Positions 1 to 21,320 are shown, counted from the first letter of the stretch. The stretch is DNA of 64,000 nt from Bilabrum cf. latius (GCA_965178125.1 OZ237743.1:1178001-1242000); one strand, 5' to 3'. Translations and numbers: made by a program. Notes: a model not told the origin generated them from the letters alone.

Positions 1-76
1 TAGCGGGATTAAACCACCGGAGATATCAATTTAAATTTATCTATTTATTTATTTTTTTTATAAATAAAAAGATTTT

Positions 77-598
77 TCAACCTTTAATAACCATCCAATT
101 AGCCGACCAATCATTAGAGGAATTACCACCCGTTAAATGAATCGTAAATCCATCGGTTCCTGCTACTACGTGGGAAAATTCAACCGGCTCACTGGCGGGG
201 GTGATTGTAGTAATAAAAACCAAATCACTAGAAGTCATACCCGGAACACTAGCAAATTCAGTAGCACCTCCACCACTCCAATTTACCCTTCCTTTATGCG
301 CTACGGTGTTATTTGCTACTACTTCACCTTTTACGGTTAAATCACATTCGTGACCGTCTTCATCAAAACTCATAACTAAACCAGCAGATGCGGTATTGGC
401 ACCGAATCGTAAAGCTTGACCCGAAGTGATGTAAGAAATACCCTTACTGTCAAGATGTAATCCTGCGTTGCTAACAACTACATCACTACTATTCACAACA
501 GCATTTACATATAGACCACTACTATCTAATCTACCAGTTGCGACATTCTTACATTGAATAGATATATCATTAGGTTGCGATAATCTTGCTAAGCTCAT
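77..598 (-). CDS. Hypothetical 173-aa virophage protein, Gly/Ser/Val-rich, possibly fibre or receptor-binding-like
   Basis: Intact ORF ending TGA, TATATA upstream of ATG. Function inferred from composition only. Confidence 0.6.
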   Translation of the reverse strand: MSLARLSQPNDISIQCKNVATGRLDSSGLYVNAVVNSSDVVVSNAGLHLDSKGISYITSGQALRFGANTASAGLVMSFDEDGHECDLTVKGEVVANNTVAHKGRVNWSGGGATEFASVPGMTSSDLVFITTITPASEPVEFSHVVAGTDGFTIHLTGGNSSNDWSANWMVIKG

Positions 599-651
599 TT
601 TTTGTATATATAAATAAGAGAAAAACTAAAACTTATATCAAACCTATAATA

Positions 652-1359
652 TTAAACTTTCATTAATTTTTTAGCTCTATCTACGGCGTCCATAAAGCTA
701 TCTTTTAATGTTGGTTCATTCCATAATACAAACCTAGACCAAAAAGCGGGGGATTTATAGTCTTTAAAGTCTTCATTTATTGAATGTCTTTTAATATAAT
801 TTTTCTTTTTACGGTTTGCTTCCTTCTCTCCATCTTTATTATAATATTGTATAAAGTCCATATAAGGGGTACCATCATTCTTAATTCCACCAAAATGAAC
901 AGTAAACAGAATATTATTACCTTGAACTACTTTAATCATATATTTTTTATTTGATTTAGTTGATTTATATAAATTAAAAACTGGTTTAGGTCTAAATGAT
1001 TTCACGTGTCCGTTATTAAATTTTTCCTTCATTGCTTCCTCTATTTCTTCCGTGTCTAATTCTCCAAAGGTTAAAGGGGTCTCTTTATTTATTCTTTTAG
1101 TGGGTCTATATATATCTCCTTTTTCCTAATATCCCTTTTCTCCCTTCTAATTCTTCCAATCCTCTAATTTCCACCTTCTTAAATTTTTCTATGCTTCATT
1201 TAATTTAATTTTATCATATGTCCCCCCTAGTTTTTTATAACGAGCAAAATATGCTAATGAACGATAAGCTGAAGGCTTTTTATACGTTCTATTTACTTTC
1301 TCAACTGCCTGACGCCATAATTTAGGACTATTAACATAATTAGGTATATTATCATTCAT
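652..1359 (-). CDS. 235-aa protein fusing two small domains typical of giant viruses (DUF5872-like + DUF5754-like)
   Basis: With TAG=Q the 652..1032 ORF extends to ATG 1359. Motifs PSAYRS..YKKLGG..RW..E.W..YRP..RI..TP.T..EL, then KKYM..VHFG..YMDF..RH..SPAFWS..LW. Confidence 0.6.
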
Positions 1360-1367
1360 CTATATAA

Positions 1368-1526
1368 TTAATAAAATGATAATTTTTTAATTGCGTGAGC
1401 CGTTTTCTTTCTATATTCTTCATAGAGTCTTTTATTATTTGGATTCTTCATTAATTTATTTTTTACCTTCTTTAATGCCTTCTTAATAGCATACTAAACA
1501 AAGATATTACTAATAATATTAATCAT
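1368..1526 (-). CDS. Small basic 52-aa hypothetical protein
   Basis: ATG 1526 to TAA 1368 with one internal TAG; fills the gap between neighbours; TATATA upstream. Confidence 0.45.
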
Positions 1527-1553
1527 ATATTATATAATTAATAAATATTTAAT

Positions 1554-3505
1554 TCAAAGCATTAAACCGCCTTTTTTTCCTTTCCTTGATATAATTTCTT
1601 CTTTTTCATTTACGACCATTAAATCATTCTATCCGTGGATAATTAATTTCTATCCTTCTTCATTAATCTATTCTTTTTTATATTCACCTAATTCTTTACC
1701 TACTTTAAAATTTAATCTTTTGTTAAATGTGATACTGTCGGTGTGAATTCGTATAATATGTTTAGCGTTGTTCTTATTCACTTTCTTCATCAATCGTTGT
1801 CTTCCATATGCCAGAATAAAAGGTTTCAATTTTCCCCAGCTATATTTAAAGGGTACTTTATGTTTCAAATGATAAATAAATTCTCCGTCATTATCCATTT
1901 CTACACGGTCAATATCAAATTTATCTATATTTATTTTTTTATCGTCTTTTGATGTAATTGTCTTTTTAGAGGAACTACATAATTTACCCCATAATGAATT
2001 TAATATTTCTTTTGCTAGATATGATTTGCTTTTTAATTTGTAGAACATTGAGACATAGGATTTAAAAAGTGTTTCACTTTTGATATATTTATCATAGGTC
2101 ATAAAATTAAATTCGTCGCTTGACATCTCTATCTCACAACCATATTTAACAAACATATTCATATCTGTAAAGACATAATAAGTAAATTCATTTTCAAATA
2201 CCTTCATCATTTGAAAGATATTCGGGTCGCATTTTCCACGGCTTACCTTACATTTATAAATCCCTATTTCGTTTTTATTATTTATATATTTATTATCAAT
2301 TGTTTTATCGCGCGAAAATGCCATCGGCGAGCACACACCCGGGAGACCGTGGCGCAAGCAGCAGCCGAGCCCAACGGACCGAAGTCCCATCGATGTGCCG
2401 AGAAAGATGGATCACATCGAAGTAAATATTGGTTCGGATCCACTGGAGCGCCAAGTAGGCCGAGGATGGATGCACGATGTAGGCCGAACGGACCCACATG
2501 GACACGCGCGATAGTTGACACGGCGTTAAGCACTACCCGTGTGAGCACCAAACCGAACATAAATACTAAACAAAACAACGGCATGAGCCGGAACGGCCAC
2601 TGCCGCGCTGCCCCGCCCCCTTCCCTAAGGAAGGAGACGAGGGAATGCCTCGCAAGCTGCTGGTCGCACTGGCGGTTGCAACCTCGCGTTGGTAGACCGG
2701 AGCCTGTGTTCGAGTCTCGAACGCATCGCCACATCAACCCCGAACCCCATTCGGCGTTAGCATTAGGATTTCCATATGGTAGTAGTGAATTAGATGACAT
2801 AATGGCGGGGTAATGACTATTTATATCGTAGGTGATAAACTCCTCATATTGTCCCTTCTTGTGATATTGAATCCCGCCACGCGTTGAACCTTCAATAAAT
2901 ACCGCTTCCTCTGGGGTTATATCTGGTGGGCTATCTATCATCATATTAAACATTGTAAAGAAATGAAGGGCTGTTTGTCTGATTCCATATTTCATTACAT
3001 CTAATGATGGGTTCTCGTCGTGTAATTCATCACTTGCTATACTCAGCCTTAAGCTCCATTCTTTGATATCTTCATCCTCTGGGCATTCGTGAATGGTGTA
3101 ATGAAGATAATATTTCTTTGAATGATAATCGGTCAGGCTCTCAACTCTATATTTATCTTTTTCAATTATTTCGGCTTTATCGGTTAATTTAACAACCATA
3201 GATTTATGGCACCGCACAAATAAAGGTTTCATCCTCTAGACGGCTTTAAATGAACCATCTTTATATTCTAAACAAACCCTTTTAAAACTCTCTTTTTTCC
3301 TACTTAGATAATAGACCTTTATATCGTCTTTCTCTCTAATCTCTATATCCATTTTTAGACCTGAAACAAGTTTATAAAGGTTCTTTGTAGTTATGGGCTT
3401 ACCGTTAAATACCTTTTCTAGATACTTCACGGATTGAATGGGGTTATCATACTTTTTACCAAAGCATATATTTAATTGATTTAACACATTTTCGTAATTT
3501 ATCAT
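1554..3505 (-). pseudogene. Protein-primed family B DNA polymerase (~498 aa when restored), frameshifted by a 455-bp insertion at 2309-2763
   Basis: Motif A YDINSHYPAIM...LPYGNP, motif B KEILNSLWGK, motif C IHTDSI. ORFs 3236..3505 and 2282..3232 join over TAG. Removing 2309-2763 restores the frame (PYGNP-NKTIDNK). Stop is TGA at 1554. Confidence 0.85.
2309..2763. mobile_element. GC-rich non-coding insertion inside the polymerase gene (nested non-autonomous element or solo retroelement repeat)
   Basis: Abrupt GC-rich island in an AT-rich gene; AT dinucleotide at both junctions (2307-8, 2762-3); length not a multiple of 3; no GT-AG ends. Confidence 0.7.
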
Positions 3506-3583
3506 TTCCTATAGTATATTATATTTAATATATTTTTAAGCCATTTTAAACACATATTATAAAGTTTAAATTATAAAATGTAA

Positions 3584-3928
3584 TTATTGTTTCGGAGCAG
3601 TGAGGATTAATATAAATCTCTTCACTTGCTCATCGCTTAAGAAGGTATAACGAGAAGAAGGACTGAATAACATTACATCATCCTTTAATTTAAATGGTGA
3701 ACCAGTTCGCCAGCCTATGGGGTAGAGAGAGCTAACATACGCATCATAATTCTTTAAATGGGGCTTTTGTTTTAATAACCTCTAGATATATTTTTTTAAT
3801 AAAGTCTTCATTTCTAAATCATTATATCCATTATCATTTTCACGAAGAGGGAACACAAAATTATATACGGGCTTATTGTTTTTAACAAGTTGAGTTCTAA
3901 CGATTTGAATATCACTTAATTTAACCAT
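3584..3928 (-). CDS. 114-aa hypothetical protein with GWRTG motif, immediately upstream of pPolB
   Basis: ATG 3928 to TAA 3584 with one internal TAG; absent from the standard-code track. Confidence 0.65.
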
Positions 3929-3977
3929 TTTTATATATATAACCTATAGATATTTTATTTTTAAGCCAAATAGACGC

Positions 3978-6095: not shown

Positions 6096-7985
6096 TTAAG
6101 ATGTGCTTAAAAGGGCCTCGAGATCTTCCCCACGCATAGCCTAGCCACCACGCATCGTAAGTTTTCCACCAAGCTTATTCAATTCTCCTCCACTATTTCC
6201 ATATCCATAATGTGCCGCCGCTTTGCCAATAGCGCTATTGTCTCCTGTTAGACTTTTGAGTGGTCCTATATTCCTAATGGTTTTCGCTAGGTTTTTAGCC
6301 TAATCACTTTTTGCCCAATCTTTAACCTGATTCCATCCGTGTTTAAAGGCTCGTCCAATCTTAGACCAGAAACGACCTTTTCCACCCATAACATTAGCAT
6401 AATTATCTAAATCCTCAAATACAGGCTAGAAACCTTTAGAACCACTTTCAGCATCACCACGTTTAGCAAGTTCAGAAAGCACTTTAGAAGGCTCAATAAG
6501 GGCGCCAGCCTCAGTATAGACACCGTTATCATTCACAAGAACATTATCATAAAACATCCATACTTTTATCTCGTATTTATCCTCATACGCACCATCCGCA
6601 TATTTATTATAAGGGTTGAAGCACTGAAGATTAACTTTAAGATTAAATCCAGTATTTACATTAGATTGAACACCAGCAAGTGTAGCAACATCTGAAGGTT
6701 TTAAAATCATATAGCAACCAGTACCGCGGTTTCCATCACTTCCATCAATTGATGAACCATAAAAGGATGAAGGAGGAAGAGCATATCCGTTCTTTCTACT
6801 AATTCTATATAATTCGTGTGGATTATCTACAGCCCCTAATTCCTCAGCGCTTCCATTGAGTGAGAAACCTATTCTTCTAATTGGTAAAGTTCTATTAGCC
6901 CAGTTAGGGTTATCATCACAACCAACAAGGCGGGCACATACCATAATAGCACTAGGGATACCATTCTCACGGGATAATTGATAATCAAAAGAAGTTAAAG
7001 AATTTTCAGTTGCGGATTTAGGTACAGGGACAGGCGCCTAAGACTAAAATTTAATTGTAGGCATATTATACATACAACGAGTCGGGGGGGCGTATCCACT
7101 CTAAAATTCAACTTCATCAACAAGAAGGGTCGTATTTGTTTCTCCTATAATTGACTAACCCGTTATTTTGTTAATATCTCCGTTATCTTTTGTAAAACTA
7201 GCCTTACACAGTCTTTGAATGGCATTTACGTGATAATCTAAATCAACCTGAAGGCTTCTCACACCGGTGAAATATTTAGCATTCACATCAACATCTGCTC
7301 CTTTTAGTGGTATAGCTTCTTGAAAATCAATAGTCCAATCAATTTGGTCTCTATTACCCGCAACGAAATCAGCATTTACAGTCGTAAAAGCATTCCCATA
7401 TGCTCCACGATAACTAAAGCTATCACCGGCACTATATCCAACATCCTAACCCCAAGCTAAAGGATTTTTAAGGGTATCACTTACTTCACGATAATCACCA
7501 ACAGTGTCAGGGCGTCCAACGGGTGAGATTGTGGATAAGGTTTCTTCACTGTTCATAACTTCGGTAGGTTCAGCCCATTCATAAACTTTTACTGTAAAAG
7601 GCTATCCATTAATTGTTAAAACACCACCTTGAAGCATTTTAAAGGTAGGTAATGAATTAGTTCCAAACCTAGATTTAAGATAAGATTGAGCGGTAATAGC
7701 ATCACCTCCAGCAGTTTGAGCTGGCACTGCTTGCTCTAGTTGTAGCCTAACTGTCATACGATGACGAAGACGAATAAACCTTGATACGGTTTTACTAGTA
7801 GGATTAACGGGGAAAGAAAGGGGAAGAAGAGAATTAGATTGATTAGATGATGGTCTAATTTCTCGGCGGGTATATTTTTGAACACCTAGTTCTGTTCCTA
7901 AACTAGCATCTTCAGGGGTTATCATTTGAAGGCTTTTAGGAGCCTTAATGCTTACTGGTAAATTCTGAACCATTTGTTGAGCCAT
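6096..7985 (-). CDS. Virophage major capsid protein (double jelly-roll), 629 aa
   Basis: One frame with 9 TAG and no TAA/TGA until 6096. Mavirus-MCP-like motifs ELYRISRKNGY, G.G..ILKPSD, VMGG, IRNIGPLK, YGYG. Confidence 0.92.
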
Positions 7986-8056: not shown

Positions 8057-9010
8057 TTAAAAATCTAAACTTAAATTATCGGTTTGTTTTTTAAATACTT
8101 GTTTAATGTGAGCTTCACCCCCGTTAAAATTCATTACGGGATACTTTTCATTTTGTTTATCAACCCAGTAGAACGCCATTGACACGCTCTTAAAGCTTCT
8201 ATCCTTCATCATTGAATACCAGCGGTAAGGATTAGAAACATATAATATATTTTCTATTGGTGAGCTGTCATTAGGATTATACGGGTAGCTGGTTAATATA
8301 GGGGATTTATTGACGGCTATAGAGCCACCAGTAGATGATTTTGTGGTCACCAATTCTTTATTCACTGGAATATCACTTTCTACGATAATAGATTTAACAG
8401 GGCACCAAGAATTTAAATTCGTCTATCTAGCCATAAAAACATAATCACCACTAGCAGGGGAATTATTATATGAAAGTTTAGCAAATAAATCACTCGGTGT
8501 GGTTGTTATTCCTTCATATTCAAATTTATCAAATAAAGCAAAAGCTTCAAAATTAACAAATAAATAATAATTATCTCTAAAATCTTCAGTTGTTGATAAA
8601 CTCCATTTATTATTTTCAAATTTAAAGACTGGTTTATCACCACTTGGAAGGCTTACCAAATCACAAATTCGGCTTAACTCTTCATTAAATTCATTTACAA
8701 TATCCTAATATGAATAATAAAATTTAGCTTTTTTACCTAGAACTATATAATCGCCTGCTCTGGCTCCTGATGTTTTATTCTCAAGAGTAAATTTTAAATA
8801 GGTTTTACCGCTGTCATCCTAATATTCAGGTTTAAACACCGGTAGCATAAATTTATTTAAATCCATCTCTTCAACAGCCGTTAAATAATTTTCACTTTGT
8901 TTTAATATTAAGCCTTCACGGGTTTCATTCACTACCGCCTATCTCGTCTAATTGTGGGGGACAGATGAACTAACTAAATTCAATCTTACAAATTCATCGC
9001 TATAACTCAT
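8057..9010 (-). CDS. Virophage minor capsid (penton) protein, 317 aa
   Basis: Fragments join over TAG. NYLTAVEE..LPVFKP, PVFKF..STTEDFR, PVKSIIVESDIPV resemble mavirus penton; lies between protease and MCP. Confidence 0.85.
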
Positions 9011-9346: not shown

Positions 9347-9922
9347 TCAATGTAGAAGCAACGCCACTAACTAATCAGGACTAAGAGCCATAATTTTGGA
9401 TATTCTAAACATTTCATTTACAAACTAATCATTAGTTAAGAATGAGAAAACAGTTCTTAATAATGCCCATCTTCCACAAGTAGCACTCTAATTAGCATAA
9501 CTCTAAATAGGTTTATTATTATAGTCAATTTTCCAGCCGTGTAATTTCTACGTCAATAAATATTTAACTAGTGTGTTCTCTTCTCCTTCTCCTTGATACA
9601 ATTGGTTTCTATTAATAAATGGTTTCTATTGGTCGGGTTTTTCTCCATAGCTATCAAAAAAATAAATAGTTTTATTATTTTCGTCCTAAGTAAGAGCGCA
9701 ATAATGACCGTATGTGCTATTTAGTCCCGTCTTTTTATTAGGATAATAAATAATTACGCCGTCATAACCATCAAAAATATGTTCAATAGATGAGGTCTAT
9801 TTAATAATATCATCGTAAATAACTATTCTAGGTTTGTAATTCAAATGTGCTACACCTAATTTTTGAATTTCTAAAGGAGATAACGGTGTTTGGACTAGTC
9901 TATTTAAGTCGTTTATGTTCAT
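9347..9922 (-). CDS. Adenain-like maturation cysteine protease, 191 aa
   Basis: Invisible in the standard code (8 TAG). GHYCAL (His), FFDSYG (Asp), YNNKPI-Q(TAG)-S...ATCGRW (oxyanion Gln, catalytic Cys); ends TGA. Confidence 0.93.
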
Positions 9923-9930
9923 TTATATAT

Positions 9931-11001
9931 TCAATAGAGAAATATTTTTTTTGTGCTAACTACATAATTATTATCAACATTAATAGCAACATAACCAAAG
10001 AGAGGGAGAGAATGAAGGGTTTTTTTAATTCGTTTTCTAGTAGGAGCGTCAAAACTTAAGACTGTTTCTAAAATATATTTTAAACTTTTAGCTGTAATTG
10101 TTTTATAAATGATATGGGTTGTAATTTCGTTCATAATGGTTCGTGTCTTCATACCGTCGCTTATTTTGTGGGTGATGTCTAAAACGCTACTTGCTGTGTG
10201 CCTTCCTGTAGTTGCTAGGATTTCCAATAAAAAATAAGCCTTTGCTTTCTGGTTCCTTTTTTTAAAGCCTTCGTAATCATCCAGAATAAATAAATTAGGT
10301 TCAGCGGTCAATTTTTTAAAAAACTCAACATTTAATTTAAAACCTTTTTCTATTAAATCTTTCTCAGGTTTCAAATCCTCTATCTTTCTTTCAGCTTCAA
10401 TAACAACATCTAAAGGTTTAGATTTCATCAAAGAAGATTTCTTATATTTAAATTCTAATTTCATTTTTTTATAATAAGCCATTTTTTCCTTATATAAAGT
10501 GTTTTCATTCTCTTTAACCAAATCATCTATATCAATGAAGGTCGCGCCTTCTCTTTTATATTTAGGGTCTTGAATTGGTGATATAACATACATATTTTTA
10601 TATTTTAATCCTCTATACATCCTTATATAATGTAAAGCTAAATGACTTTTCCCGCTTCCACTCTTACCAAATAATCGCACATATTCACGCCCCTATGGAA
10701 AGAGCATAGGAAAAGGTAAATATTGACTATTATCTTTAATCGCAAATTCCTAAACTGACCGTATATATTCATCTTGTAATAGTTTATGTAATTGTTCCCT
10801 TTTCTTGTCCTTATCAACGTTATATCTTACTCGGCTTTCTCCGTAATAAGATTTTAAAACATCATCTGTTATCTCTTCCGCTTTGACGTGTTGAATATCT
10901 TTAGCGTTCGGGTCGTAATAAATAAACCGGTTCTATTGTGTTTTTTTGTATTTTTGAATAGCTACAATATGGCTATTTTCCGTATATTGTAAAGATAGCA
11001 T
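9931..11001 (-). CDS. FtsK/HerA (A32-like) genome packaging ATPase, 356 aa
   Basis: Walker A GKSGSGKS, Walker B FILDD, GRH arginine finger; extends to ATG 11001 over TAGs. Confidence 0.92.
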
Positions 11002-11093
11002 TATATATAATAATAAAATAAAATAAACCATTTATTCACACGGGTTTAAAATATTAAGTTGGTTCCTTCTTCTATCCTTCCTCACAAAAAAAG

Positions 11094-11909
11094 TTATAGA
11101 GACATAATTATATTTTTAATTTCCGCCCGTGTTTTCCTATTTATGTATTGGTCAATCCACGATATTATCTTATTAATATTTGCTTTAGAATACTTTGAAA
11201 ATTGTTTTATTATTTCCACATTTCCTAATGCTTTTCTCATTAGTCCTTTTAGGCTTTGAAATGATTTTGACTTCTCGCTTTGATGTCCTTTTATTCTTAG
11301 CATACTTTCTAATCGCATTCTTATGGAATATAAATATCCTAATGCTTCCCTATCAATTAAATCATTGACTCTTTTTTCATTCCTCTTCTCACCTCTTAAT
11401 TTAAATAAATCCTTCAATCGTTTTAATACTTTAAAATTATTAGAACCAAAATATTTATCTACATCTCTTATTAATCCATCTTTTACCTCGTCCTAATCTA
11501 TTTCATAATCACTTATATGATAAATTATGCTTATTTCATCTATAAATTTTCCATCAAAAGCCCAAAAATCAATTTTTAAGTATGGTTTATCTCCGCTAAA
11601 TATCTATTTATAAATGGTTTTAACGGGTGTAGATATGAATGCTTTTATGGTCTTGTATTTTTTATTACCAGCTTTAACCTCAATAAAATTAACCTAACTT
11701 ATAAAAACCTTTACAAATCTTATTAAACTATTTATAAATTCAGGCTCTACCCTCTAATATAAATCTATATCACTAGCAAACAAGGAATAATAAGGAATAG
11801 CATACGAACCATTTAAAAATAAATTAGCCCCCTTCTTAAAATTCACCTCATCAAATATATCGTTCTCGTATTCATTAAAATAAGCTTGTGTCAATTCATT
11901 AATTTTCAT
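11094..11909 (-). CDS. 271-aa protein with Pol-beta-type nucleotidyltransferase signature
   Basis: With TAG=Q: LNGSYAIPYYSLFASDIDLY (GS-x11-DxD), FIEVKAG, YLKIDF, KVLKR; directly upstream of the ATPase. Confidence 0.65.
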
Positions 11910-12332: not shown

Positions 12333-12406
12333 ATAGTGCTATATATACTTAAGGAAAAAACGAATAAAAACGAATTAAAGATATGCCCCCATATATATTA
12401 TACAAT

Positions 12407-13000
12407 ATGCCAGATTATAAGAAAGGAAAAATATATATTATGTATTCAACAGTAAAGAAGATTTTACCGTACATAGGCTCAACAGTTCAAACCCTATCAA
12501 AAAGGAAAGGGGGACACAAAGACGATTTTAGAAAATATAATCTAGGATAGCGTGGACGATGTTCATCTTTTGATGTATTAGAAGCGGGGAAATACAAAAT
12601 TGAACTTCTAGAGGAATACCCCTGTGATAATAAAATGTAGCTACTTAGAAGGGAAGGATATTGGTAGAGACAAATAAAATGTTGTAATAATAGAATAGCA
12701 GGACGAACACAAAAAGAATATGTTATAGATAACAAGGAAAAAATAAAAGAATATTAGAAAGAGTATCGTTTAAAGCATTCGGTAAGGCTCACCTAGGAGC
12801 GAAAGGAGAGGCGATTGAAAAATTTGGAGTCTGAAAAGGCCACAAATAAAAAGTATCGGGAAGCTAATAAAGAGAAAATACAAGCCCATAAGTCAGAAAA
12901 AATAATTTGTGAATTATGTGGAGCCACGGCGACAAGATGTCATTTGAGGAGACATCAAAGGACAGACAGATGTAAGAAAAACCGAAAGCAAGAAGTTTAA
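12407..13000 (+). CDS. GIY-YIG endonuclease with C-terminal zinc ribbon, 197 aa
   Basis: GKIY...YIGSTVQTLSKR..H, IELLEEYPC..REG, CELCG..HQRTDRC; continuous only if TAG is sense. Confidence 0.9.
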
Positions 13001-13077: not shown

Positions 13078-15159
13078 ATGTCAAACAATACAATTAATGA
13101 TTTACTGAAGGGTATTATGTAGAAACGGTCTAATCAACTTAGGATACAAAATGACCCACAAGTTAGATTAATGATATAGCAAGAAGAAGATGAAGCAGAA
13201 GCCAGAAGAAAAACCCTAAAAGATGATGCTTTCCTTCGTGCTAATTATGTTCCTATTGATGTTAGAATTGAAAGACAACAACAACAACAAGGAATTGAAA
13301 ATATTATTAAAAATATTAAGACTATGAACGCTAAAAAAGAATTACCAATTTATCAAATAGAAAATTTACAATCATTTATAAATAGAAATCCAGATTTACC
13401 GGATAAATTAAAAAGATAGGTTGTAGATACCATTAATAATATTAATGTAAGGTAGGTAGTAGGACCAGCAAGCGATAAGAAAAAGGTATTTGATGGAATT
13501 AAAAATATTAATATGAGATTATTTACAACCACTAAAGCACAACGGGACGCAGTATTAGAACAATTACCAAGCGATATGAGAGGATTAAAAGCAGTTCAAA
13601 TACGAAACGCTTTACGACAAGCTGGAATCACGAAAACCCCCCAAGGATAGAATGTTTCACAATTAACAAAAGTTGATGACGCTGTTAATGCTTTATAGGA
13701 TGTTTTAAATCCTCCTGAAGCCGTTCAACAATAGCAAAGAGATGACCCGCAACCTGATAGACCTGAACCAGATAACCCGCAACCGCCACCAGAACCAAGA
13801 CCAAAACCCCCTCCAACACCACAAGAAGCATTAAGCCCAGAACTACAAGAACAAATTGAAGCACTTGAAAGAGTAGCAAACGCCAATCCTTCAAGTAGTA
13901 GAAAAGCACCAAAGAAAACCGAACTAGCAAAAATACTTAGAGAGTCAAATGTTAAAGGTGTAAAAGGACGGTCTAAAGTTGATTTTATAAAAAGTGCTAA
14001 GAAGAAATTATCAGAACTTAAACAAGAAGCACAAGAACAAGAGGCATCACAATCATCAGGACAAGAAGAAGAAGGGGAGAACGCCAGTAGAAATTTATCA
14101 GGCTAGTTTTCAAAAGTATCACCCGCACCAGTTCCACCTAGTGGATTCTTACAATCACCAGAACCACAAGGACAATCACCAGAACAACAACAAGGACAAT
14201 CACCAGAACAACAACAAAGCACATTTGGTTCTTTAGGACAATCGGTTATGGATGGTATCAGTTATTTAACAGGAAAAACAGGCTCACAACCACAAGCACC
14301 AGCACCCCCCGCAGGTCAAGACAGAGGAAAAGGTGAAGCGATGGCAGTAGATGAAGATGGAGAACCTATTACAGATGAATTTGGAAGACAACTTACAGAA
14401 GTTCAATTCAGACAAAGACAAGCACAGGCAGAACGAGATGAAGCACAAAGACAACAAGAAGAAAAAGAAAGACAAGCTAGAGAACGGAGGGGAGCCCCAG
14501 ATGAAGAACCAAGAGATGGAGAAGCCGTAGAACCAGCACAACAAGCACAACCAGCAGAACCAGCACAAGAACCAGCAGAACCACAAGAACCACAGAAAAC
14601 AGATGATGAAATAGCCAAATCAATAGGAAAATCAATAAATGCTAAAGGCAATAAAAATGAAATATTATCATAGTTAAAAGCAAGAGGAATAAATCCAACA
14701 GACGCCAGCCCAACAATTAACACTTTAAAATATATTGTACGAAGGCTTAAAGCCGGAGTCTTACAACCTAATTTATCAACTGATGCTGTTAGGTCCTTAG
14801 TAGCTAGAGCAAATACAGAAGGAAGAGCAACCAGAAGTGATAGAACATTAGCAAAATCAAGACTAAACGATACGGGATATGAATTAAGCGGGAAGCCTCA
14901 ATGGACATATTCACCACCAGCTCAAGGTTTCGGAAATAAAGACCCTTATAATATGTTAATGAAAGCTATTAATTTAATTATTGATTAGAAAATAAAAACA
15001 TAGAACAGGGGCGGTAGTTGTGGATGTGGCAAGCATAAAGGAGGACAAATTGAACAAGAATATTTTAATGTAGCCGGTGGTAAAGGTAATCATAATGTGA
15101 AGGACAAGGTAAAACAAATCTTATATCAACACTTTGAAAAACTAAGATTATTAAAATAA
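13078..15159 (+). CDS. 693-aa Gln/Pro/Glu-rich hypothetical protein
   Basis: Single frame, only TAG interruptions (one inside a CAA CAA TAG CAA run), TAA at 15157. Confidence 0.85.
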
Positions 15160-15204: not shown

Positions 15205-15822
15205 ATGGCAGAGTTAGTAGCAACAGCAAGCACGGTTGGTGGGGTGTTGGTTCCTCTAGGATATGCGGGATGCTTCCTTTGGAACTTATGTTCCTCACTT
15301 GCGAATCGTAAAAAATTGTGTTTAGTCCTTCCACGAAAAGGAGGTAAAAGCTCACTTAACAAAAGTTTAACGTCTATAGACCCGAATATTCTATTAGTTG
15401 ATTTAGATGAAGTCCTTAAAGTTAATGCTGACACCAAACAGGTTTTATACCTAAACGAAGCAGAACGAAGAGGGGACTTATCAACGGCTAAATTATTAAA
15501 ATTTGAACTTATGAAAAAAAGTATTGAGTCTGTAAAGAAAAATTGGTTATAGAAAGCAGAACATAGAGCAGTCTTTTTAACAAGTGATTTTGAACTAGCA
15601 CAAGAAATATTCAAAAAATCCAGCATATGCGTAGCTATACCCAGCGATAAACTGTATAGCAAAATCCATAAAGATTTAGATAATGAAGATAAGGATGTAG
15701 CAAGACATTCACGAGCTGAATTTTTGAAAAGTTTTAACCCTAATGAGTATAGCGTGTATAATACGTTTGAAGGGCTTTCATAGATGGTTATGTCAGTCTA
15801 TAATATGACCTACAGAGTGTAA
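15205..15822 (+). CDS. 205-aa protein with N-terminal hydrophobic segment and P-loop-like motif
   Basis: LCLVLPRKGGKSSL ... LLVDLDE; extends over two TAG to TAA 15820. Confidence 0.7.
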
Positions 15823-15858: not shown

Positions 15859-17016
15859 TTATTTAGTCTTATTATTAAAATTATCCTTTAGAGTTTTTGA
15901 TATATTTTTAGCCGGCTCCGTTGTTATCTTCCATTGAATTAAATATTCATCTTGTCCCTCTTGATTCTTTCTTCTCTTTATTATTTTACCTATATCATTC
16001 TAATATTTTCTTTTAGTAGCCTCATCAACATATGAATCTTTCCATTTAACCCTGTATGTATTATTTTTATTCTTTCTTATCAATTTTTCAATTATAAATA
16101 TATCTTGTGCTTTATTCTCGTATGGTTTAGATGCTAATAACAACTAATCTCTATTAAAGTATGTATAGGGTATGCCCTCAATTTTATATAATGGGGGGTT
16201 ATCTGGTTTTATTATTACTCTTTCAATTTTATAAGGCTTTACGCTATATTTAATATCTCCCGCCCTAAATGCTCCGGTTTCCTTTATCCCTTCTATACTT
16301 CTAGGATAATCTAATCCTATTCTTACCATTTCGCCCTCATTTAATACATCACATACTTCACCCTAACATCTAGGCGGTATATATGGTAGATTCTCCCTTT
16401 TCTTATTCAACATTTCCTATCTTGTTTTATAACGCTCGTTTAATATCTCCCTCAACTTTGGTATTAAATGTCTCCAGTTCGTAATAGTTGTCCCCGTTCT
16501 TATCTCCTATGAATTCAAATAATAAAATATAGCTCTCCCTATTTCCTCATTCAATCTCTCCACCAAAGCCATCTACGATTTACGCTTCACTCTTGAAAAT
16601 ATATGCTCTATCTTATTCTTCTTTAGATATTCTTTAAATAATTCATTATCAAATTCTCCCCCTTTATCTGTTCGTATCATTTTAGGTTTCATTAAATAAT
16701 TTCTTTTATAGATTTTTTGAAAAGCTTTTATCACATCCTCCGCCCCTCTATCCTTTAACTCTTCAAAATCTAACGCTAACCCGCTCGTATCTATCACAAC
16801 TAATAAATATTTTGAATCGTTCTTGGTAGCGTAAGGGAGATACAATAAATCAGCCTATTGGATAAGCCCCTCTTTAGTAGGTTTATAATATTTAACATAA
16901 TTCAATCCTTTCGGTTTCTTTATCGGCTTCATTAAATCGTTCGTGATAGACTTCGTATTAAATCCAAAACTTGACTCATTAATATCATTATCTTTTTTCT
17001 TTCCTCTCTTACTCAT
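15859..17016 (-). CDS. Retroviral-type (rve) DDE integrase with C-terminal chromodomain-like region, 385 aa
   Basis: Q(TAG)ADLLYLP..YLLVVID, RTDKGGEF, S-Q(TAG)-MALVERLN; C-terminal YRVKWK and EYLIQWK..TEP. Confidence 0.92.
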
Positions 17017-17529: not shown

Positions 17530-17946
17530 ATGTTCGTTAAGTTCCTGTTATCAAGTGTCAACGTTAAAAAGGTATTCCAGAATAAAAGCATCTCCACTTT
17601 TATGTCAATCGTATATATTTATGTTGAGAAGCACAAACCATCAATGTTAAAGCATTTTCAACTTGATGACCTTCGTGTCCCTCCAGATTGTAATGAACGA
17701 CTTAAAAAAAGAGTATTAAGTGAATTTGAAGAAATTGATTATATATCATATTTCGTTCAACCATTTAGAATAATACACAAGCTAAATGAAGAAAATGTTG
17801 AATGCCTAAGTGAAGACTTAAATGATACCGTAGCCATAGATTTATTGGTTAAAAAAGAGAAGGAAGCCATTGAGAAATCAATAAAGAAATAGAAGGATGA
17901 CATCATCAAAAAGGCTATAGATGACTTTATCTTACCCAAGGATTAA
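17530..17946 (+). CDS. 138-aa hypothetical protein
   Basis: ORF 17530..17892 reads through TAG to TAA 17944. Confidence 0.65.
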
Positions 17947-17993
17947 ACTATATATTAATAATAATAATAATAGTATTATTAAAATTCAAAAAT

Positions 17994-18341
17994 TTATTCT
18001 AAAAACTCAATATCAAACCATTCATTTGAATCATCATATTCTTCAGCATACATCAACGATAATTCTATATACTCTTCTAATTCACTATTAGTAAGGTTAT
18101 CAATTTCTTCTTCTTTCAATAGTTTGAAATCGGTTCCGTTGTCATCATTAAAACTTTCAACTTGACCTTCTGCTTCCTTTTTATATTCTTCTTTCCAATT
18201 ATCACTCCATACAACTCTCTTCGCTTGGTCTTTTAAAGTGTCAGTATAAAGCTTTTGTGCTTCTTCCTTATTATTAAACTTTTTAACCCAGTGTGTATGA
18301 TAACATTCACTACCCCACGCTAATGATACAATATAAACCAT
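17994..18341 (-). CDS. 115-aa acidic hypothetical protein
   Basis: Intact ORF ending TAA. Confidence 0.65.
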   Translation of the reverse strand: MVYIVSLAWGSECYHTHWVKKFNNKEEAQKLYTDTLKDQAKRVVWSDNWKEEYKKEAEGQVESFNDDNGTDFKLLKEEEIDNLTNSELEEYIELSLMYAEEYDDSNEWFDIEFLE

Positions 18342-18382
18342 ATCTATAATAATTAAAAATAAAATAATTATTATAATAAAAC

Positions 18383-19180
18383 TTAATTAAAATTATCCTC
18401 TATCTCGTCTCGCTCCTCGTTATCCAATACCCAATCTAATCTTGAAGGGTGCCACGCTCTAGAAATTAATTCTTCTTTGATTTTTTTAGTTTGTTCAATT
18501 GTTTCATCTTTCCGCTCTTCTAATGATGGGATTAATGTCGTGGAATAATCAATTCGTTCATCCTTAATTCCATTCTCCAAATGATTAAAACTAAAACAAT
18601 TAGAAAACATACATTCCATATCTACAACATTTGAAACATCCCAGTTATTTAAAGGTTGATTTAGTGAATGGCAATCATAAAACATTCCGCACATATCTTT
18701 AACATTTGAAACGTTCCAATTATTCAATGGTTGGTTAAATGAATGGCAATCATTAAACATTTCACTCATATCTTCAACATTTGAAACATTCCAATTATTC
18801 AATGGTTGGTTAAACGAATGACACTCATTAAACATACCGCCCATATCTTCAACATTTGAAACATCCCAGTTATTTAAAGGTTGATTAAACGAATGACACC
18901 CATAAAACATATCGGTCATATCTTTAACATTTGAAACATCCCATGAATTTATTGGTGATTCAATTATCATATTATCAAATAGGTTTAACATATTCGTAAT
19001 AAATGTTGTTACTAATAATTCAGGTTTCAAAAACTACAATGCGTGAAGAAGAAAATCTGTATCTTTAGCTACGTAATATGTTTTACCTTCAAATTTCACA
19101 ATATAATTATCTTTTCTAAAATAATATTCTTTTGGTTTTGTAGCTTTCAAGGTTCCATTTTCCCATTTTAAAACTTCCAT
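18383..19180 (-). CDS. DUF285/BspA-like 25-aa-repeat protein, copy 1 (265 aa)
   Basis: Repeats FNQPLNNWDVSNVEDMxxMFxxC; C-terminal EELI..AWHPSR; ATG 19180 reached over one TAG. Confidence 0.88.
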
Positions 19181-19269
19181 TCTGTATATACCTATAATAA
19201 ATATATTATTTAAGCCTTTTTAAACTCACACTATAATATTAAATAATCATTAATATTATTAAAATTCTA

Positions 19270-20289
19270 TTAATTAAAATTATCCTCTATCTCGTCTCGC
19301 TCCTCGTTATCCAATACCCAATCTAATCTTGAAGGGTGCCACGCTTTAGCAATTAATTCCTCTCTATATTTCTTTGTTTTTTTAATGGTTTTATGTTTTC
19401 GTCTTTCTAACAACGGTATCAATGTTGTAGAATAATCAATTCTTATACCCTTAATACCGTTCTCTAAATGATTGAAACTTTCACAATCTTTTAACATCTA
19501 AAACTTACTCTAGACATTGGAAACATCCCAATTATCCAATGGTTGATTGAAGTTCTAACATCCATTAAACATAGAGGATATATATTCAACGTTAGAAACA
19601 TCCCAATTACCCAATGGTTGATTGAATCTTGAACAAGAACCAAACATACCACTCATATCCCTAACATTACTAACATTCCAATCGTTCAATGATTGATTGA
19701 ATTCAGAATGATAGAACATAGACGACATTTTTTCAACCTTAGAAACATCCCAATTATTTAATGGTTGATTGAAGTTCCAACATCCATTAAACATAGAGGA
19801 CATATTTTCAACGTTAGAAACATTCCAGTTTGTTAATGATTGATTGAATCTTGAACAAGAACCAAACATACCACTCATATCCCTAACATTACTAACATTC
19901 CAATCGTTCAATGATTGATTGAATTTAGAACAAAAATAGAACATAGACGACATTTTTTCAACCTTAGAAACATCCCAATTGCTCAATGGTTGATTAAAGC
20001 TTCTACAACTTTGAAACATTAAACTCATATCCTTAACATTTGAAACATCCCAAGTATTCAAAGGTTCATTAAATTTATCCTATCCATTGAATACTTCACT
20101 CATATCTGTTATGAATGTTGTTATTATTTCATAAGGTTTATAGTCCTTCAAAAACCATCTTATATAATCTTTATCCATTGCTATATGATAGGTTTTCCCT
20201 TCAAAATTAACCTAAAATCCATTTCGTTCATAATATTCTTTTGGTTGTGTAGCTTTCAAGGTTCCATTTTCCCATTTTAATAATTCCAT
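19270..20289 (-). CDS. DUF285/BspA-like 25-aa-repeat protein, copy 2 (339 aa)
   Basis: Fragments 19270..19497 and 19555..20061 join over TAG; termini nearly identical to copy 1. Confidence 0.88.
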
Positions 20290-20448
20290 TCTGTATATAC
20301 CTATAATAAATATATTTTTTAAGTCAATTTAAACGCTCTATAACAATTTAAAAATAAAAGCGCGTTTGTTCCATTTGTGAAGGTATAAGCGAGGATAAGG
20401 GGGTATAATGAAGGTAGTTTAGAAGGTTGAATAATGGAGTCCCATAAA

Positions 20449-20580
20449 GTGATGGAACTTTTGGCTAGAAAATGGCTAGAGTCCCATAACACCTTCACAA
20501 GAGGGCTACATCCACGTTTTGATTAGAACTTACATATACTAATACGCAATTTATGGATATGGTCATCGTATAGAGTTTTA
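20449..20580. repeat. Dispersed intergenic element, copy C (partial)
   Basis: Matches copy B directly and copy A inverted. Confidence 0.8.
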
Positions 20581-20599
20581 TATATAATTGATTTTATAT

Positions 20600-21320
20600 A
20601 ATTAGAAGGATAAAGCAGTTATATGAAGTAGCAGTATGAAGAGGACCACCTTGACTTTTGGAGCGACTAGCTCCAAAAGGAGTGGAACGGACTGAAGAGC
20701 TTTAGCTCTGATGGACTGGAACTATTGAAACTTGTTTCCTTAACCGAAGGGAATAAATTTATTTATTACCGTAGCGGGGGGGTCCTTACGAGGATGGCTC
20801 GGGCTCACTCTCCTTCCCTCTGGTCCTTTGGTGGATGAGTGGCTGAGTTTCAGGGTGATCGTCTCGGTATGTGTAGCACCATGATGTTTCGGAAATCCTC
20901 TTTGGGACGAGGGGTTCTTCTTTCTTTTGCTTTCTTTTGAGGCTTTGGCCCTTGCTCTAGGGGGGGGCTGCGGGTCTTTTGATCGCGTTGTTCTCTGAGG
21001 TCATCATTGATGGCCCCACCTTGGGGGTGTGACAGCCATTCGTGAAAAGTCGTATCGTTACATTCAATCATCATCATCACCTTCGAGATCTCGCATCGGA
21101 CCCTCGTCCAACACTTAAGGTTGCACATTACTTTGTGTGGTTTCTTTACCCTACAAATTATTCTGGTATTCTGGTATTCGGCGGTGAAAGGGTCGGGGGT
21201 CTTGTAGTCCTTCGTTTTAGGGCTCCTCCGGATCTAGGTGATCACCCAAACCCCTTCGGGGGCGACGGTGCATCTGGGTGCTTACGGAATCTTTACCCAA
21301 CAATGTATTTCTGTATTTCT
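20600..21320. other. Probable right terminal region (TIR candidate) of the virophage, hairpin-rich
   Basis: Intermediate GC, no convincing ORF, many stem-loops, sits between last viral gene and host gene 3' end. The partner repeat is not in the window. Confidence 0.5.

What the first reader, a model, noticed from the sequence alone, without database searches (positions are those of the whole stretch)
1..21320. Integrated mavirus-like virophage whose genes are written in a UAG=Gln code
Seen: the hallmark genes are broken in the standard code only by TAG (apart from the PolB insertion) and become full length, ending in TAA/TGA, when TAG=Gln (MCP 629 aa with 9 TAG; protease 191 aa with 8 TAG). 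The protease oxyanion-hole Gln (9503-9505) and the integrase Q-ADL and SQ..VER glutamines are TAG. Knowledge: ATPase-PRO-PEN-MCP order plus pPolB plus rve integrase is the mavirus/EMALE architecture, and virophages depend on giant viruses. Inference: the virophage is adapted to a recoded host, so its genetic code restricts host range, and standard-code virus searches would largely miss it. I do not recall a described mavirus-type provirophage with a UAG-only recoding, but could not check the literature.
Basis: partly seen in the sequence, partly recalled or inferred. Interest (0 to 1): 0.92.

Follow-up and report, generated by a model that had tools for sequence, protein, structure and literature searches.

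The report
Integrated virophage using UAG-glutamine code
An AT-rich, mavirus-like virophage genome sits next to GC-rich DNA of an unidentified eukaryote, and both read the stop codon TAG as glutamine, so the parasite has adopted its host's unusual genetic code.

Summary
Window 1 to about 20,600 is AT-rich (25-40% GC). With TAG read as sense it gives 23 ORFs holding 81 in-frame TAG and no in-frame TAA or TGA. All end in TAA (18) or TGA (5).

The capsid genes match mavirus: MCP (E 3.7e-8), penton (E 2.4e-24) and protease (41% identity). An rve integrase, a protein-primed PolB and a P-loop ATPase lie in mavirus order.

TAG means Gln. It fills near-invariant Gln columns of the integrase (13/14, 12/14, 14/14) and the invariant Gln of the protease active site (37/39 loci). 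Summed substitution scores rank Q first.

New here: the GC-rich flank also uses TAG as Gln. Four ORFs of 2,255-3,089 codons carry 5-34 TAG each. TAG fills the invariant Gln of two DEAH helicase motifs. None of 43 related virophage contigs shows this code.

PolB is broken by a GC-rich insertion of about 440 bp. The left end lies outside the window. No read evidence for the junction was obtained.

One paper reports endogenous viral elements using a host TAA/TAG=Gln code (Streblomastix). I found no report of a UAG-only, mavirus-type case. Verdict: real, a new variant of a known kind.

The parts
1..20603 (.). AT-rich virophage-like element. It is cut on the left by the window edge. Its right end lies somewhere in about 20,604-20,800.
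   Evidence: GC is 0.21-0.47 in 200-bp steps, except the PolB insert. No terminal inverted repeat pair lies inside the window. The last copy of an element-internal repeat ends at 20,603.
6096..7985 (-). Major capsid protein, 629 aa, 9 TAG, stop TAA
   Evidence: Matches mavirus MCP PDB 6g45 at E 3.7e-8 over residues 92-620. 55 relatives at E<=0.001 among 1.84 billion representatives. Pfam MCP_V20_C at E 0.0037, below the curated cut-off.
8057..9010 (-). Penton (minor capsid) protein, 317 aa, 5 TAG
   Evidence: Matches mavirus minor capsid protein PDB 6g41 at E 2.4e-24. Pfam V18-19 scores 29.2 bits against a cut-off of 27.
9347..9922 (-). CE-clan cysteine protease, 191 aa, 8 TAG, stop TGA. H73, D90, Q140 (a TAG codon) and C149 are invariant.
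   Evidence: 41% identical, E 1.6e-30, to 'PRO [Cafeteriavirus-dependent mavirus]'. Invariant columns. AlphaFold model with pLDDT 83.2. Foldseek finds Ulp1 2hl8 at E 1.6e-5 and adenovirus proteinase 1nln at E 1.6e-4.
9931..11031 (-). Putative packaging ATPase, 366 aa, 3 TAG. It has a P-loop (GKSGSGKS) and a Walker-B-like LFILDD.
   Evidence: Only weak P-loop Pfam matches, E 0.014-0.043. Homologues in 7 of 43 virophage loci (L003 1e-26, L002 5e-24), directly upstream of the protease as here. No PDB match.
11094..11909 (-). Conserved virophage ORF, 271 aa, 4 TAG, function unknown
   Evidence: Homologues in L002 (2e-17) and L003 (1e-15), next to the ATPase. No Pfam family.
12383..13000 (+). Conserved ORF, 205 aa, 5 TAG. 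Its N-terminus looks GIY-YIG-like, but this motif is recalled and was not confirmed.
   Evidence: Homologues in 9 of 43 loci, best L026 at 4e-29. No Pfam hit at E<=1.
13078..15159 (+). ORF of 693 aa, rich in Gln, Pro and Glu, 11 TAG, function unknown
   Evidence: Open only with TAG as sense. No Pfam hit. No homologue in the 43 loci.
15205..15822 (+). Conserved virophage ORF, 205 aa, 2 TAG
   Evidence: Homologues in L003 (1e-13) and L002 (2e-12).
15859..17016 (-). rve-family integrase with a chromodomain-like C-terminus, 385 aa, 7 TAG
   Evidence: Pfam rve at E 5.8e-11. Chromo at E 1.8e-4, below the cut-off. 17 relatives found, several carrying PF00385. TAG 54, 148 and 291 fall in near-invariant Gln columns.
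2757..3505 (-). Protein-primed DNA polymerase B, N-terminal part, up to the YDINSHYP motif
   Evidence: Pfam DNA_pol_B_2 at E 1.9e-7, 30.8 bits against a cut-off of 25.8. Aligns to residues 216-365 of the L003 PolB.
2315..2756 (-). GC-rich insertion of about 440 bp (52-58% GC) that splits PolB and shifts its frame. Boundaries are approximate.
   Evidence: Composition, sequence. The L003 PolB is continuous across this point, with 22 aa between the two aligned blocks. The insert is not repeated elsewhere in the window. No Rfam match at E<=1. RNA fold z-score -2.68.
1554..2321 (-). Protein-primed DNA polymerase B, C-terminal part, in another frame
   Evidence: Aligns to residues 388-575 of the L003 PolB at E 4e-17.
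652..1359 (-). DUF5872-family protein, 235 aa, 3 TAG
   Evidence: Pfam DUF5872 at E 8e-21. Homologues in 6 of 43 loci.
18383..20289 (-). Two paralogous DUF285 repeat proteins (18383-19180, 265 aa; 19270-20289, 339 aa)
   Evidence: Pfam DUF285 at E 2.6e-80. 75-nt repeat family. No homologue in the 43 loci.
21416..28183 (-). Host gene nearest the junction: a frame of 2,255 codons with 9 TAG, stop TGA (Mut7-C RNase, 3'-5' exonuclease, tRNA_edit)
52109..59659 (-). Host DEAH helicase gene: a frame of 2,516 codons with 34 TAG. TAG fills the Gln of motif I (GSGKST-Q-IPQ) and of motif Ia (Q-P in TQPRR).
   Evidence: Aligned to Prp43/DHX chains, E down to 1.3e-40. Codon counts.
30979..40248 (+). Host paralogue: DEAH helicase plus IBR domain, a frame of 3,089 codons with 19 TAG, stop TAA

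Best explanation
The left 20.6 kb of the window is the larger part of a mavirus-like virophage genome, of the endogenous kind called EMALE in Cafeteria. It lies in the nuclear DNA of a GC-rich, apparently intron-poor eukaryote that I could not identify.

Both partners use a code in which UAG is glutamine and UAA and UGA are stops. The element's mRNAs are translated by the host's ribosomes. A host that decodes UAG with a tRNA-Gln and does not terminate there lets C-to-T drift turn CAG into TAG in an AT-rich parasite. TAG now makes up 31% of the element's Gln codons, more than CAG.

Shown:
- the gene set and its order;
- the meaning of TAG in the element's genes and in the host genes;
- the absence of this code in 43 related virophage contigs;
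- the break in PolB.

Inferred:
- insertion by the rve integrase;
- reactivation by a giant virus through the element's own upstream motifs, with that giant virus also translated in this code;
- that this copy cannot replicate with its own PolB unless the insertion is spliced out.
For: Virophage identity:
- MCP matches mavirus MCP 6g45 at E 3.7e-8.
- Penton matches mavirus 6g41 at E 2.4e-24.
- Protease is 41% identical to mavirus PRO, E 1.6e-30, and has a CE-clan fold.
- rve and pPolB Pfam hits pass their cut-offs.
- 10 of the 23 listed ORFs (the two PolB halves counted apart) have homologues in L002 and/or L003. The block o11094-ATPase-PRO-MCP (penton too in L002) keeps the window's order.

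Code in the element:
- 81 TAG, 0 TAA and 0 TGA in 6,030 codons.
- Integrase TAG54 aligns to Q in 13 of 14 homologues, TAG148 in 12 of 14, TAG291 in 14 of 14. The 75%-identical P0062 was left out.
- Protease TAG140 aligns to Q in 9 of 9 homologues and in 37 of 39 loci. TAG99 aligns to Q in 23 of 41 loci.
- Summed BLOSUM62 over 24 TAG columns: Q 25.0, E 9.9, K 7.9. Over 41 columns against standard-code loci: Q 22.7, K 16.1, E 11.7.
- Protease and MCP end at the same residues as their relatives, so TGA and TAA are true stops.

Code in the host:
- ORFs of 2,255, 3,089, 2,527 and 2,516 codons appear only with TAG as sense. The longest standard-code ORF is 839 codons.
- In the helicase, 5 of the 10 TAG in the stretch searched fall in the two alignments shown. 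Against the two chains they read Q/Q, Q/Q, E/E, D/Q and S/S. The two Q/Q sites are the invariant Gln of motifs I and Ia.
- In 25 TAG columns between two host paralogues, Q is the commonest partner: Q 6, E 3, A 3, gaps 3, TAG 2.
- Host Gln codons are CAG 351, CAA 99 and TAG 72. The element has CAA 167, TAG 81 and CAG 15.

Specificity: none of the 43 IMG/VR loci gains more than 0.08 coverage with TAG as sense, against +0.44 here.

Linkage: a 6-kb stretch across the junction has 0.88-0.92 of its sampled words in runs of two studies.
Against:
- The share of words shows that both halves are in one run, not that they are joined. One of those runs may be the window's own source.
- The left end, the terminal repeats and the target-site duplication are outside the window.
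- The mavirus promoter motif TCTA is not enriched: 9 of 22 upstream regions against 7.0 expected, with 229 of 1000 shuffles reaching this.
- The ATPase has no family-level match.
- MCP TAG columns are weak evidence: Q 1.85-fold enriched, but K 2.6-fold and H 3.1-fold.
- One TAG column (ORF 12383-13000, codon 95) aligns to Ile in 8 of 9 loci. Protease TAG166 aligns to Glu in its 3 closest relatives and to Glu in 12 and Asp in 7 of 27 loci.
- No tRNA gene of any kind lies in the window, so the decoding tRNA was not seen.
- Q at TAG positions in the near-identical database proteins (P0001, P0056, P0057, P0062) is not independent, because the collection reads TAG as Q in the window's own integrase.
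Confidence: 0.76

Rival explanations
1. The element is a polinton/Maverick-type self-synthesising transposon that uses the host's code but does not depend on a giant virus. It would then be virophage-like in genes only.
For: rve integrase plus pPolB plus the capsid module is also the polinton gene set (established knowledge). The mavirus TCTA motif is not enriched. No giant-virus sequence lies in the window.
Against: The best named matches of MCP, penton and protease are mavirus proteins. The closest contigs are IMG/VR viral contigs with the same gene order. A long motif sits at a fixed -45/-46 before 6 of 22 genes, and TATAG lies before 14 of 22 against 4.3 expected. These look like a private promoter system, as reported for EMALEs of other types (PMC8547959, passage read).
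Confidence: 0.13
2. Assembly chimera: a free virophage of the same host, or of a related recoded host, was joined by the assembler to a host contig.
For: No read evidence for the junction. The transition zone 20.6-21.4 kb has intermediate GC. A free virophage of this host would share its code.
Against: An integrase is present. A GC-rich insertion of host-like composition sits inside PolB. Both halves occur together in runs of at least two studies at 0.88-0.92 of the sampled words. Host intergenic stretches in the window have a similar GC of about 54-57% in 2-kb steps.
Confidence: 0.08
3. The TAG codons are real stops: a decayed, pseudogenised element in a standard-code genome, with CAG changed to TAG by C-to-T damage.
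For: AT-rich elements are prone to C-to-T change. PolB is broken.
Against: C-to-T damage would also turn CAA into TAA. There are 167 CAA and 0 in-frame TAA. Host genes carry TAG at invariant Gln positions. ORF lengths match those of relatives once TAG is read through.
Confidence: 0.01
4. The GC-rich flank is a giant-virus genome rather than cellular DNA, with the virophage integrated in its helper as reported for Sputnik in a mimivirus (recalled).
For: Long intron-free ORFs; MORN repeats occur in some giant viruses (recalled).
Against: Six genes with Pfam domains lie in about 43 kb, and four of them span 2,255-3,089 codons. They are a Prp43-like DEAH helicase fused to an IBR domain, Mut7-C, a TauD-type oxygenase and an acyl-CoA synthetase. 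No viral hallmark family turned up in the frames I scanned.
Confidence: 0.02

Closest known systems
Mavirus and the endogenous mavirus-like elements (EMALEs) of Cafeteria burkhardae (Hackl et al. 2021, PMC8547959; passages read)
   Same: A low-GC element in a high-GC host (EMALEs 30-50% in a 70% GC genome; here about 30% against 55-70%). Same gene set: MCP, penton, protease, ATPase, rve integrase, pPolB. Mavirus proteins are the best named matches. EMALEs are interrupted by host mobile elements, once inside pPolB, and carry solo repeats of them. Here PolB is split by a GC-rich insert.
   Different: All genes carry in-frame TAG read as Gln. The data paper on the Cafeteria genomes mentions a non-standard code only for the mitochondrion (PMC6972860, passage read). 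The TCTA motif of mavirus and type 4 EMALEs is not enriched; other motifs are. The MCP aligns at only about 23-25% identity to loci L001 and L003. TIRs and TSD could not be examined.
Endogenous viral elements of Streblomastix strix that use the host's code (Bellas et al. 2023, PMC10120064; passage read)
   Same: An integrated element with a polinton-like or virophage-like capsid gene uses the same non-standard translation table as its protist host. The authors read this as a long association.
   Different: There both TAA and TAG are Gln and the MCPs fall in a 'Metamonada group'. Here only TAG is reassigned, TAA is the main stop, the host is GC-rich, and the element is mavirus-type.
Eukaryotic nuclear codes with UAG alone reassigned (Panek et al. 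2017, PMC5304391; abstract read)
   Same: UAG is sense while UAA and UGA stay stops. UAG=Gln is reported for Iotanema spirale.
   Different: That work concerns cellular transcriptomes. No virus or mobile element is treated in the abstract. The present host is unidentified.
Giant-virus metagenome-assembled genomes better annotated with alternative codes (PMC13524828; passages read)
   Same: It raises the idea that giant viruses match hosts with reassigned stop codons. Code 15 is among the codes tested.
   Different: The genomes are giant viruses, not virophages. Code choice rests on gene-calling scores, with no host flank.

Membership tests
Mavirus-like virophages / EMALEs | Major capsid protein homologous to the mavirus MCP | tested here: met
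   PDB 6g45 at E 3.7e-8 over 529 residues. 55 relatives found.
Mavirus-like virophages / EMALEs | Penton (minor capsid) protein homologous to that of mavirus | tested here: met
   PDB 6g41 at E 2.4e-24. Pfam V18-19 above its cut-off.
Mavirus-like virophages / EMALEs | Adenain-like (CE clan) cysteine protease | tested here: met
   41% identity to mavirus PRO. H73, D90, Q140 and C149 invariant. Fold matches Ulp1 and adenovirus proteinase.
Mavirus-like virophages / EMALEs | FtsK/HerA-type packaging ATPase | tested here: inconclusive
   P-loop protein in the conserved position, with homologues in 7 of 43 virophage loci. Only weak generic P-loop Pfam matches and no PDB match.
Mavirus-like virophages / EMALEs | rve integrase and protein-primed PolB | tested here: met
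   rve at E 5.8e-11 and DNA_pol_B_2 at E 1.9e-7. PolB is interrupted by an insertion of about 440 bp.
Mavirus-like virophages / EMALEs | Terminal inverted repeats and a target-site duplication at both host junctions | tested here: inconclusive
   No inverted-repeat pair between the right end and the rest of the window. The left end lies outside the window.
Mavirus-like virophages / EMALEs | TCTA late-promoter motif before the genes (mavirus and type 4 EMALEs) | tested here: not met
   9 of 22 upstream regions against 7.0 expected; 229 of 1000 shuffles reach this. Other motifs are enriched instead.
Mavirus-like virophages / EMALEs | Replication depends on a co-infecting giant virus | not testable with these tools
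   No giant-virus sequence in the window; this needs an infection experiment.
UAG=Gln nuclear code (NCBI table 15 type) | In-frame TAG at conserved Gln positions of host genes | tested here: met
   DEAH motifs I and Ia. In the paralogue table, Q is commonest: 6 of 25.
UAG=Gln nuclear code (NCBI table 15 type) | In-frame TAG at conserved Gln positions of the element's genes | tested here: met
   Integrase columns 54, 148 and 291; protease columns 99 and 140.
UAG=Gln nuclear code (NCBI table 15 type) | TAA and TGA remain stops | tested here: met
   Element: TAA x18 and TGA x5, none in frame, with ends matching relatives. Host: TGA x5 and TAA x1.
UAG=Gln nuclear code (NCBI table 15 type) | A tRNA-Gln with anticodon CUA and an eRF1 that spares UAG | not testable with these tools
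   No tRNA gene in the window. No whole genome is held.

The most novel reading that the evidence does not exclude
The window samples a three-partner system living entirely under a UAG=Gln code: a protist, a giant virus and a virophage.

The virophage lineage has been in this code for a long time. TAG is 31% of its Gln codons, occupies catalytic and invariant Gln positions, and outnumbers CAG five to one. This predicts an undescribed giant virus written in the same code. It also predicts that the code fences this host-virus-virophage community off from standard-code relatives.

The GC-rich host may itself be an unreported lineage with UAG alone reassigned.
Probability: 0.35. Interest if true: 0.8.

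Novelty: new variant of a known kind. Interest (0 to 1): 0.62.

Why it matters
- It gives a clean natural case in which a parasite of a parasite has taken on its host cell's altered genetic code. Host DNA and parasite DNA lie on one molecule for direct comparison.
- The code becomes a host label. Virophage or giant-virus contigs that open only with TAG as sense can be tied to UAG=Gln hosts.
- It makes testable the question of whether a code change limits virus host range.
- It predicts a giant virus in the same code.
- It warns that gene callers using the standard code cut such elements into fragments. Coverage by long ORFs is 0.46 in the standard code against 0.90 with TAG as sense.
- It points to a GC-rich eukaryote with UAG alone reassigned, a kind of code known from few lineages (PMC5304391, abstract).

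Tried and rejected
Tools that gave no answer:
- No whole genome is held, so copy number, tRNAs and eRF1 could not be examined.
- Metagenome contigs: a scan with P0002 found none. Scans with alignment A2 did not complete.

Searches that found nothing:
- The look-up of sequencing runs listed no RNA holder.
- The word-index search with the MCP found nothing. Its 98%-identical relative is 325 aa, below the length window.
- The IMG/VR scan with the MCP found no close relative. An MCP alignment was too divergent to search with.
- tblastn of the MCP against the phage collection gave no match.
- Rfam gave no match, either for the whole window at gathering scores or for the PolB insert at E<=1. There is no tRNA.

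Tests that did not help:
- The FNQ motif of the DUF285 repeats is always CAA, in 10 of 10 repeats, so it says nothing about TAG.
- MCP TAG columns against 53 relatives are too variable to decide.
- The penton's TAG columns against mavirus fall in variable positions.
- The Atlas search with the host acyl-CoA synthetase gave only the family, nothing on the host's kinship.

Readings of the PolB insert I considered:
- Spliceosomal intron: rejected, as I saw no AG near the 3' border on reading the sequence.
- Intein: rejected, because the frame shifts.
- Remnant of a host mobile element: left open, by analogy with the solo repeats in EMALEs (PMC8547959).

Literature, nine searches:
- None turned up a mavirus-type or UAG-only recoded virophage.

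Full report
**What is in the sequence.** The window falls into two parts. Bases 1-20,000 have 28-38% GC in 2-kb steps and bases 22,001-64,000 have 54-70%. In 200-bp steps the change lies between about 20,600 and 21,400. Inside the AT-rich part there is one GC-rich island, about 2,315-2,756 at 52-58% GC.

Under the standard bacterial or nuclear stop set, the AT-rich part gives only 18 ATG-ORFs of at least 100 aa, the longest 316 aa. With TAG read as sense it gives a compact set of ORFs. I tabulated 23 of them, the two PolB halves among them. They hold 6,030 codons with 81 in-frame TAG, no in-frame TAA or TGA, and stops TAA x18 and TGA x5.

**Is it more than chance?** Three controls say yes.
- The six raw frames of the same 20.4 kb each hold 238-300 TAA, 90-125 TAG and 85-164 TGA per about 6,800 codons. 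Random breakage of frames would therefore leave more TAA than TAG. The ORFs contain none.
- Making TAG sense raises the codons in stop-to-stop ORFs of at least 150 codons from 2,729 to 6,304. Making TGA sense gives 3,128. Making TAA sense gives 5,128, with a longest ORF of only 324 codons against 698 for TAG.
- In 43 related virophage contigs from IMG/VR, of similar AT content, making TAG sense adds 0-0.08 to the fraction covered by ORFs of at least 120 codons. In the window element it adds 0.44, from 0.46 to 0.90.

**What the element is.** The hallmark genes match mavirus or mavirus-like contigs.
- The 629-aa ORF 6096-7985(-) matches the solved mavirus major capsid protein (6g45) at E 3.7e-8, over residues 92-620. 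It has 55 relatives among 1.84 billion representative proteins.
- The 317-aa ORF 8057-9010(-) matches the mavirus minor capsid protein (6g41) at E 2.4e-24. It passes the Pfam V18-19 cut-off.
- The 191-aa ORF 9347-9922(-) is 41% identical (E 1.6e-30, 98% coverage) to a protein named 'PRO [Cafeteriavirus-dependent mavirus]'.
- A model of that protease (pLDDT 83.2) finds CE-clan proteases: Ulp1 at E 1.6e-5 and adenovirus proteinase at E 1.6e-4.
- ORF 15859-17016(-) is an rve integrase (E 5.8e-11) with a weak chromodomain match. Several relatives carry PF00385.
- ORF 3505-2757(-) carries the organellar/viral PolB family, at E 1.9e-7.
- ORF 9931-11031(-) has a P-loop and only generic Pfam matches. 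It has homologues in 7 of 43 virophage loci, directly upstream of the protease.

Ten of the 23 tabulated ORFs have homologues in contigs L002 and/or L003. The block o11094-ATPase-PRO-MCP (penton too in L002) keeps the window's order there.

Thirteen ORFs have no homologue in L002 or L003, and twelve of them have none in any of the 43 loci. These include two DUF285 repeat proteins (E 2.6e-80). A DUF5872 protein (E 8e-21) has homologues in 6 loci.

**What TAG means in the element.** The integrase gives the clearest answer. I aligned it with 14 homologues, leaving out the 75%-identical P0062.
- TAG54, the residue before the first catalytic Asp in Q-A-D-L, faces Q in 13 of 14.
- TAG148, in S-Q-x-x-x-V-E-R before the catalytic Glu, faces Q in 12 of 14.
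- TAG291 faces Q in 14 of 14.

In the protease, TAG140 faces Q in all 9 homologues aligned and in 37 of 39 standard-code loci. TAG99 faces Q in 23 of 41 loci. H73, D90, Q140 and C149 are the invariant columns, in the His, Asp/Glu, Gln, Cys order of the CE clan. The role of that Gln in the oxyanion hole is established knowledge of the clan and was not measured here.

Summed BLOSUM62 scores rank the candidate residues the same way in two data sets. Over 24 TAG columns they give Q 25.0, E 9.9, K 7.9. Over 41 columns against the 43 loci they give Q 22.7, K 16.1, E 11.7.

Some evidence runs the other way.
- MCP columns are too variable to decide: Q 1.85-fold enriched, K 2.6-fold, H 3.1-fold.
- One column (ORF 12383-13000, codon 95) faces Ile in 8 of 9 loci.
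- Protease TAG166 faces Glu in its three closest relatives.

The database proteins that are 74-98% identical (P0001, P0056, P0057, P0058, P0062) mostly show Q at TAG positions. I do not count them. The collection holds the window's own 385-aa integrase read through 7 TAG (P0061), so its gene caller reads TAG as Q.

**The host uses the same code.** With TAG as sense, the GC-rich part opens into ORFs of 2,255, 3,089, 2,527 and 2,516 codons carrying 9, 19, 5 and 34 TAG. The longest standard-code ORF there has 839 codons.

These ORFs carry eukaryote-type domains: Mut7-C, a 3'-5' exonuclease, DEAH helicase plus IBR, and MORN. A TauD-type oxygenase and an acyl-CoA synthetase lie nearby.

I aligned a 601-aa stretch of one helicase, with TAG shown as X, to solved Prp43/DHX chains (E down to 1.3e-40). 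Five of its 10 TAG fall in the two alignments shown. Against the two chains they face Q/Q, Q/Q, E/E, D/Q and S/S. The two Q/Q sites are the invariant Gln of GSGKT-T-Q-IPQ and of T-Q-PRR.

Between the two host helicase paralogues, 25 TAG columns face Q 6 times, E 3, A 3, gaps 3 and TAG 2. S and R occur twice each, and K, N, C and H once each.

Host stops are TGA x5 and TAA x1. Host Gln codons are CAG 351, CAA 99 and TAG 72 in 11,696 codons. The element has CAA 167, TAG 81 and CAG 15. So the AT-rich element uses TAG about twice as often per codon as the host, and five times more often than CAG. That pattern fits long residence in this code better than a recent arrival.

**How it most likely works.**

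Shown:
- an AT-rich virophage genome and GC-rich eukaryotic genes lie on one assembled molecule;
- both need TAG=Gln to be read;
- TAA and TGA terminate.

Inferred:
- the element is translated by host ribosomes with the host's UAG-reading tRNA-Gln, since no tRNA gene lies in the window;
- it entered by its rve integrase;
- it is expressed from its own signals.

On those signals, a 17-nt motif (GTTTAAA-WW-G-R-CTTAAA) sits 45-46 nt before the ATG of 6 of 22 genes. TATAG lies within 80 nt upstream of 14 of 22 genes, against 4.3 expected, and 0 of 1000 shuffles reach this. The mavirus TCTA motif is not enriched, at 9 against 7.0 expected. EMALEs other than type 4 likewise lack TCTA and have other putative promoters (PMC8547959, passage). 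By analogy, a giant virus other than a CroV-like one would activate this element, and it would also have to be readable in this code.

**State of this copy.** PolB is split. Its N-terminal block (to YDINSHYP...PYGNPNA) and its C-terminal block are in different frames, about 440 bp of GC-rich DNA apart. In contig L003 the same two blocks are 22 aa apart in one ORF of 595 aa.

The insert is not repeated in the window. It has no Rfam match at E<=1 and folds only moderately better than shuffles, z = -2.68. Its nature is open. Host retrotransposons and their solo repeats inside EMALEs, once in pPolB, are a published precedent (PMC8547959, passage). All other genes are intact.

**Integration.** No TIR pair lies inside the window, so the element continues beyond base 1. 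The right border lies after 20,603. That is the end of the third copy of a roughly 200-bp repeat also found at 4,617-4,840 and 9,124-9,350. It lies before the host gene's stop at 21,416.

A 6-kb stretch across the border has 0.92 of its sampled words in one run (study P1), 0.88-0.91 in four runs of a second study, 0.53 in a third and 0.30 in a fourth. This shows co-occurrence, not adjacency, and one of these runs may be the source of the window. A chimera therefore stays possible. I put it at about 0.08, because of the integrase, the host-like insert in PolB and the shared rare code.

**Comparison with what is known.** The nearest system is mavirus and the EMALEs of Cafeteria. They share the gene set, a low-GC element in a high-GC host, and interruption by host elements.

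The idea that an endogenous viral element uses its host's non-standard table is in print for Streblomastix strix, with TAA and TAG as Gln (PMC10120064, passage). Codes with UAG alone reassigned are known from few eukaryotes (PMC5304391, abstract). Giant-virus MAGs that annotate better under alternative codes have been reported (PMC13524828, passages). One virophage survey noted an ochre suppressor tRNA as a hint of recoded hosts (PMC6905037, passage).

Nine full-text searches found no mavirus-type or UAG-only recoded virophage.

**Verdict.** The added result is that the flanking host genes prove the host's UAG=Gln code. It is a new variant of a known kind, not a new category. Interest 0.62. 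I did not identify the host organism.

Noticed in passing
window 2315-2756: A GC-rich (52-58%) insertion of about 440 bp splits the PolB gene and shifts its frame. It is not repeated in the window, has no Rfam match, and its RNA fold z-score is -2.68. It may be a remnant of a host mobile element or an unusual intron.
   Followed up: partly
window 4617-4840, 9124-9350, 20419-20603: Three copies of an intergenic repeat of about 200 bp (74-86% alike). The first is inverted relative to the other two. The third marks the last element-specific sequence before the host flank.
   Followed up: partly
window 5574-5726: A tandem array of a 20-nt unit (CTTTGRAAAGTATGAACCWA, six overlapping 53-nt copies at 20-nt spacing) lies in the gap downstream of the stop of ORF 5758-6048 and upstream of the start of ORF 4891-5442. 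It may be a binding-site array or an origin.
   Followed up: no
window, 45-46 nt upstream of the starts at 3505, 4023, 5442, 6048, 19180 and 20289: A long conserved motif, GTTTAAA-WW-G-R-CTTAAA, sits at a fixed distance before 6 of 22 genes. TATAG lies before 14 of 22 genes. The mavirus TCTA motif is not enriched.
   Followed up: yes
window 30979-40248 (+) and 52109-59659 (-): Two very large host paralogues (3,089 and 2,516 codons) share a 64-aa N-terminal block at 55% identity and a DEAH helicase core at 34%. They differ sharply in TAG use (19 against 34) and in GC (0.61 against 0.56). One carries about 11 tandem copies of a 13-aa Ser/Gly/Ala-rich unit.
   Followed up: partly
window 60774-62963 (-): The host acyl-CoA synthetase has GC3 of 0.91 and no TAG or CAA at all (19 CAG). 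TAG use in the host seems to follow local GC and perhaps expression level.
   Followed up: no
protein P0058 (873-bp contig of another data set): A 74%-identical protease fragment ends exactly before the column of the window's TAG99. It starts with a stretch that carries a precomputed prenyltransferase family (PF01255). This hints that a relative is also broken at TAG by a standard-code gene call, in a different gene neighbourhood.
   Followed up: no
window 20640-20720: Two short perfect hairpins (CTTTTGGAGC...GCTCCAAAAG and AGAGCT..AGCTCT) lie just beyond the last repeat copy, near the presumed right border of the element.
   Followed up: no
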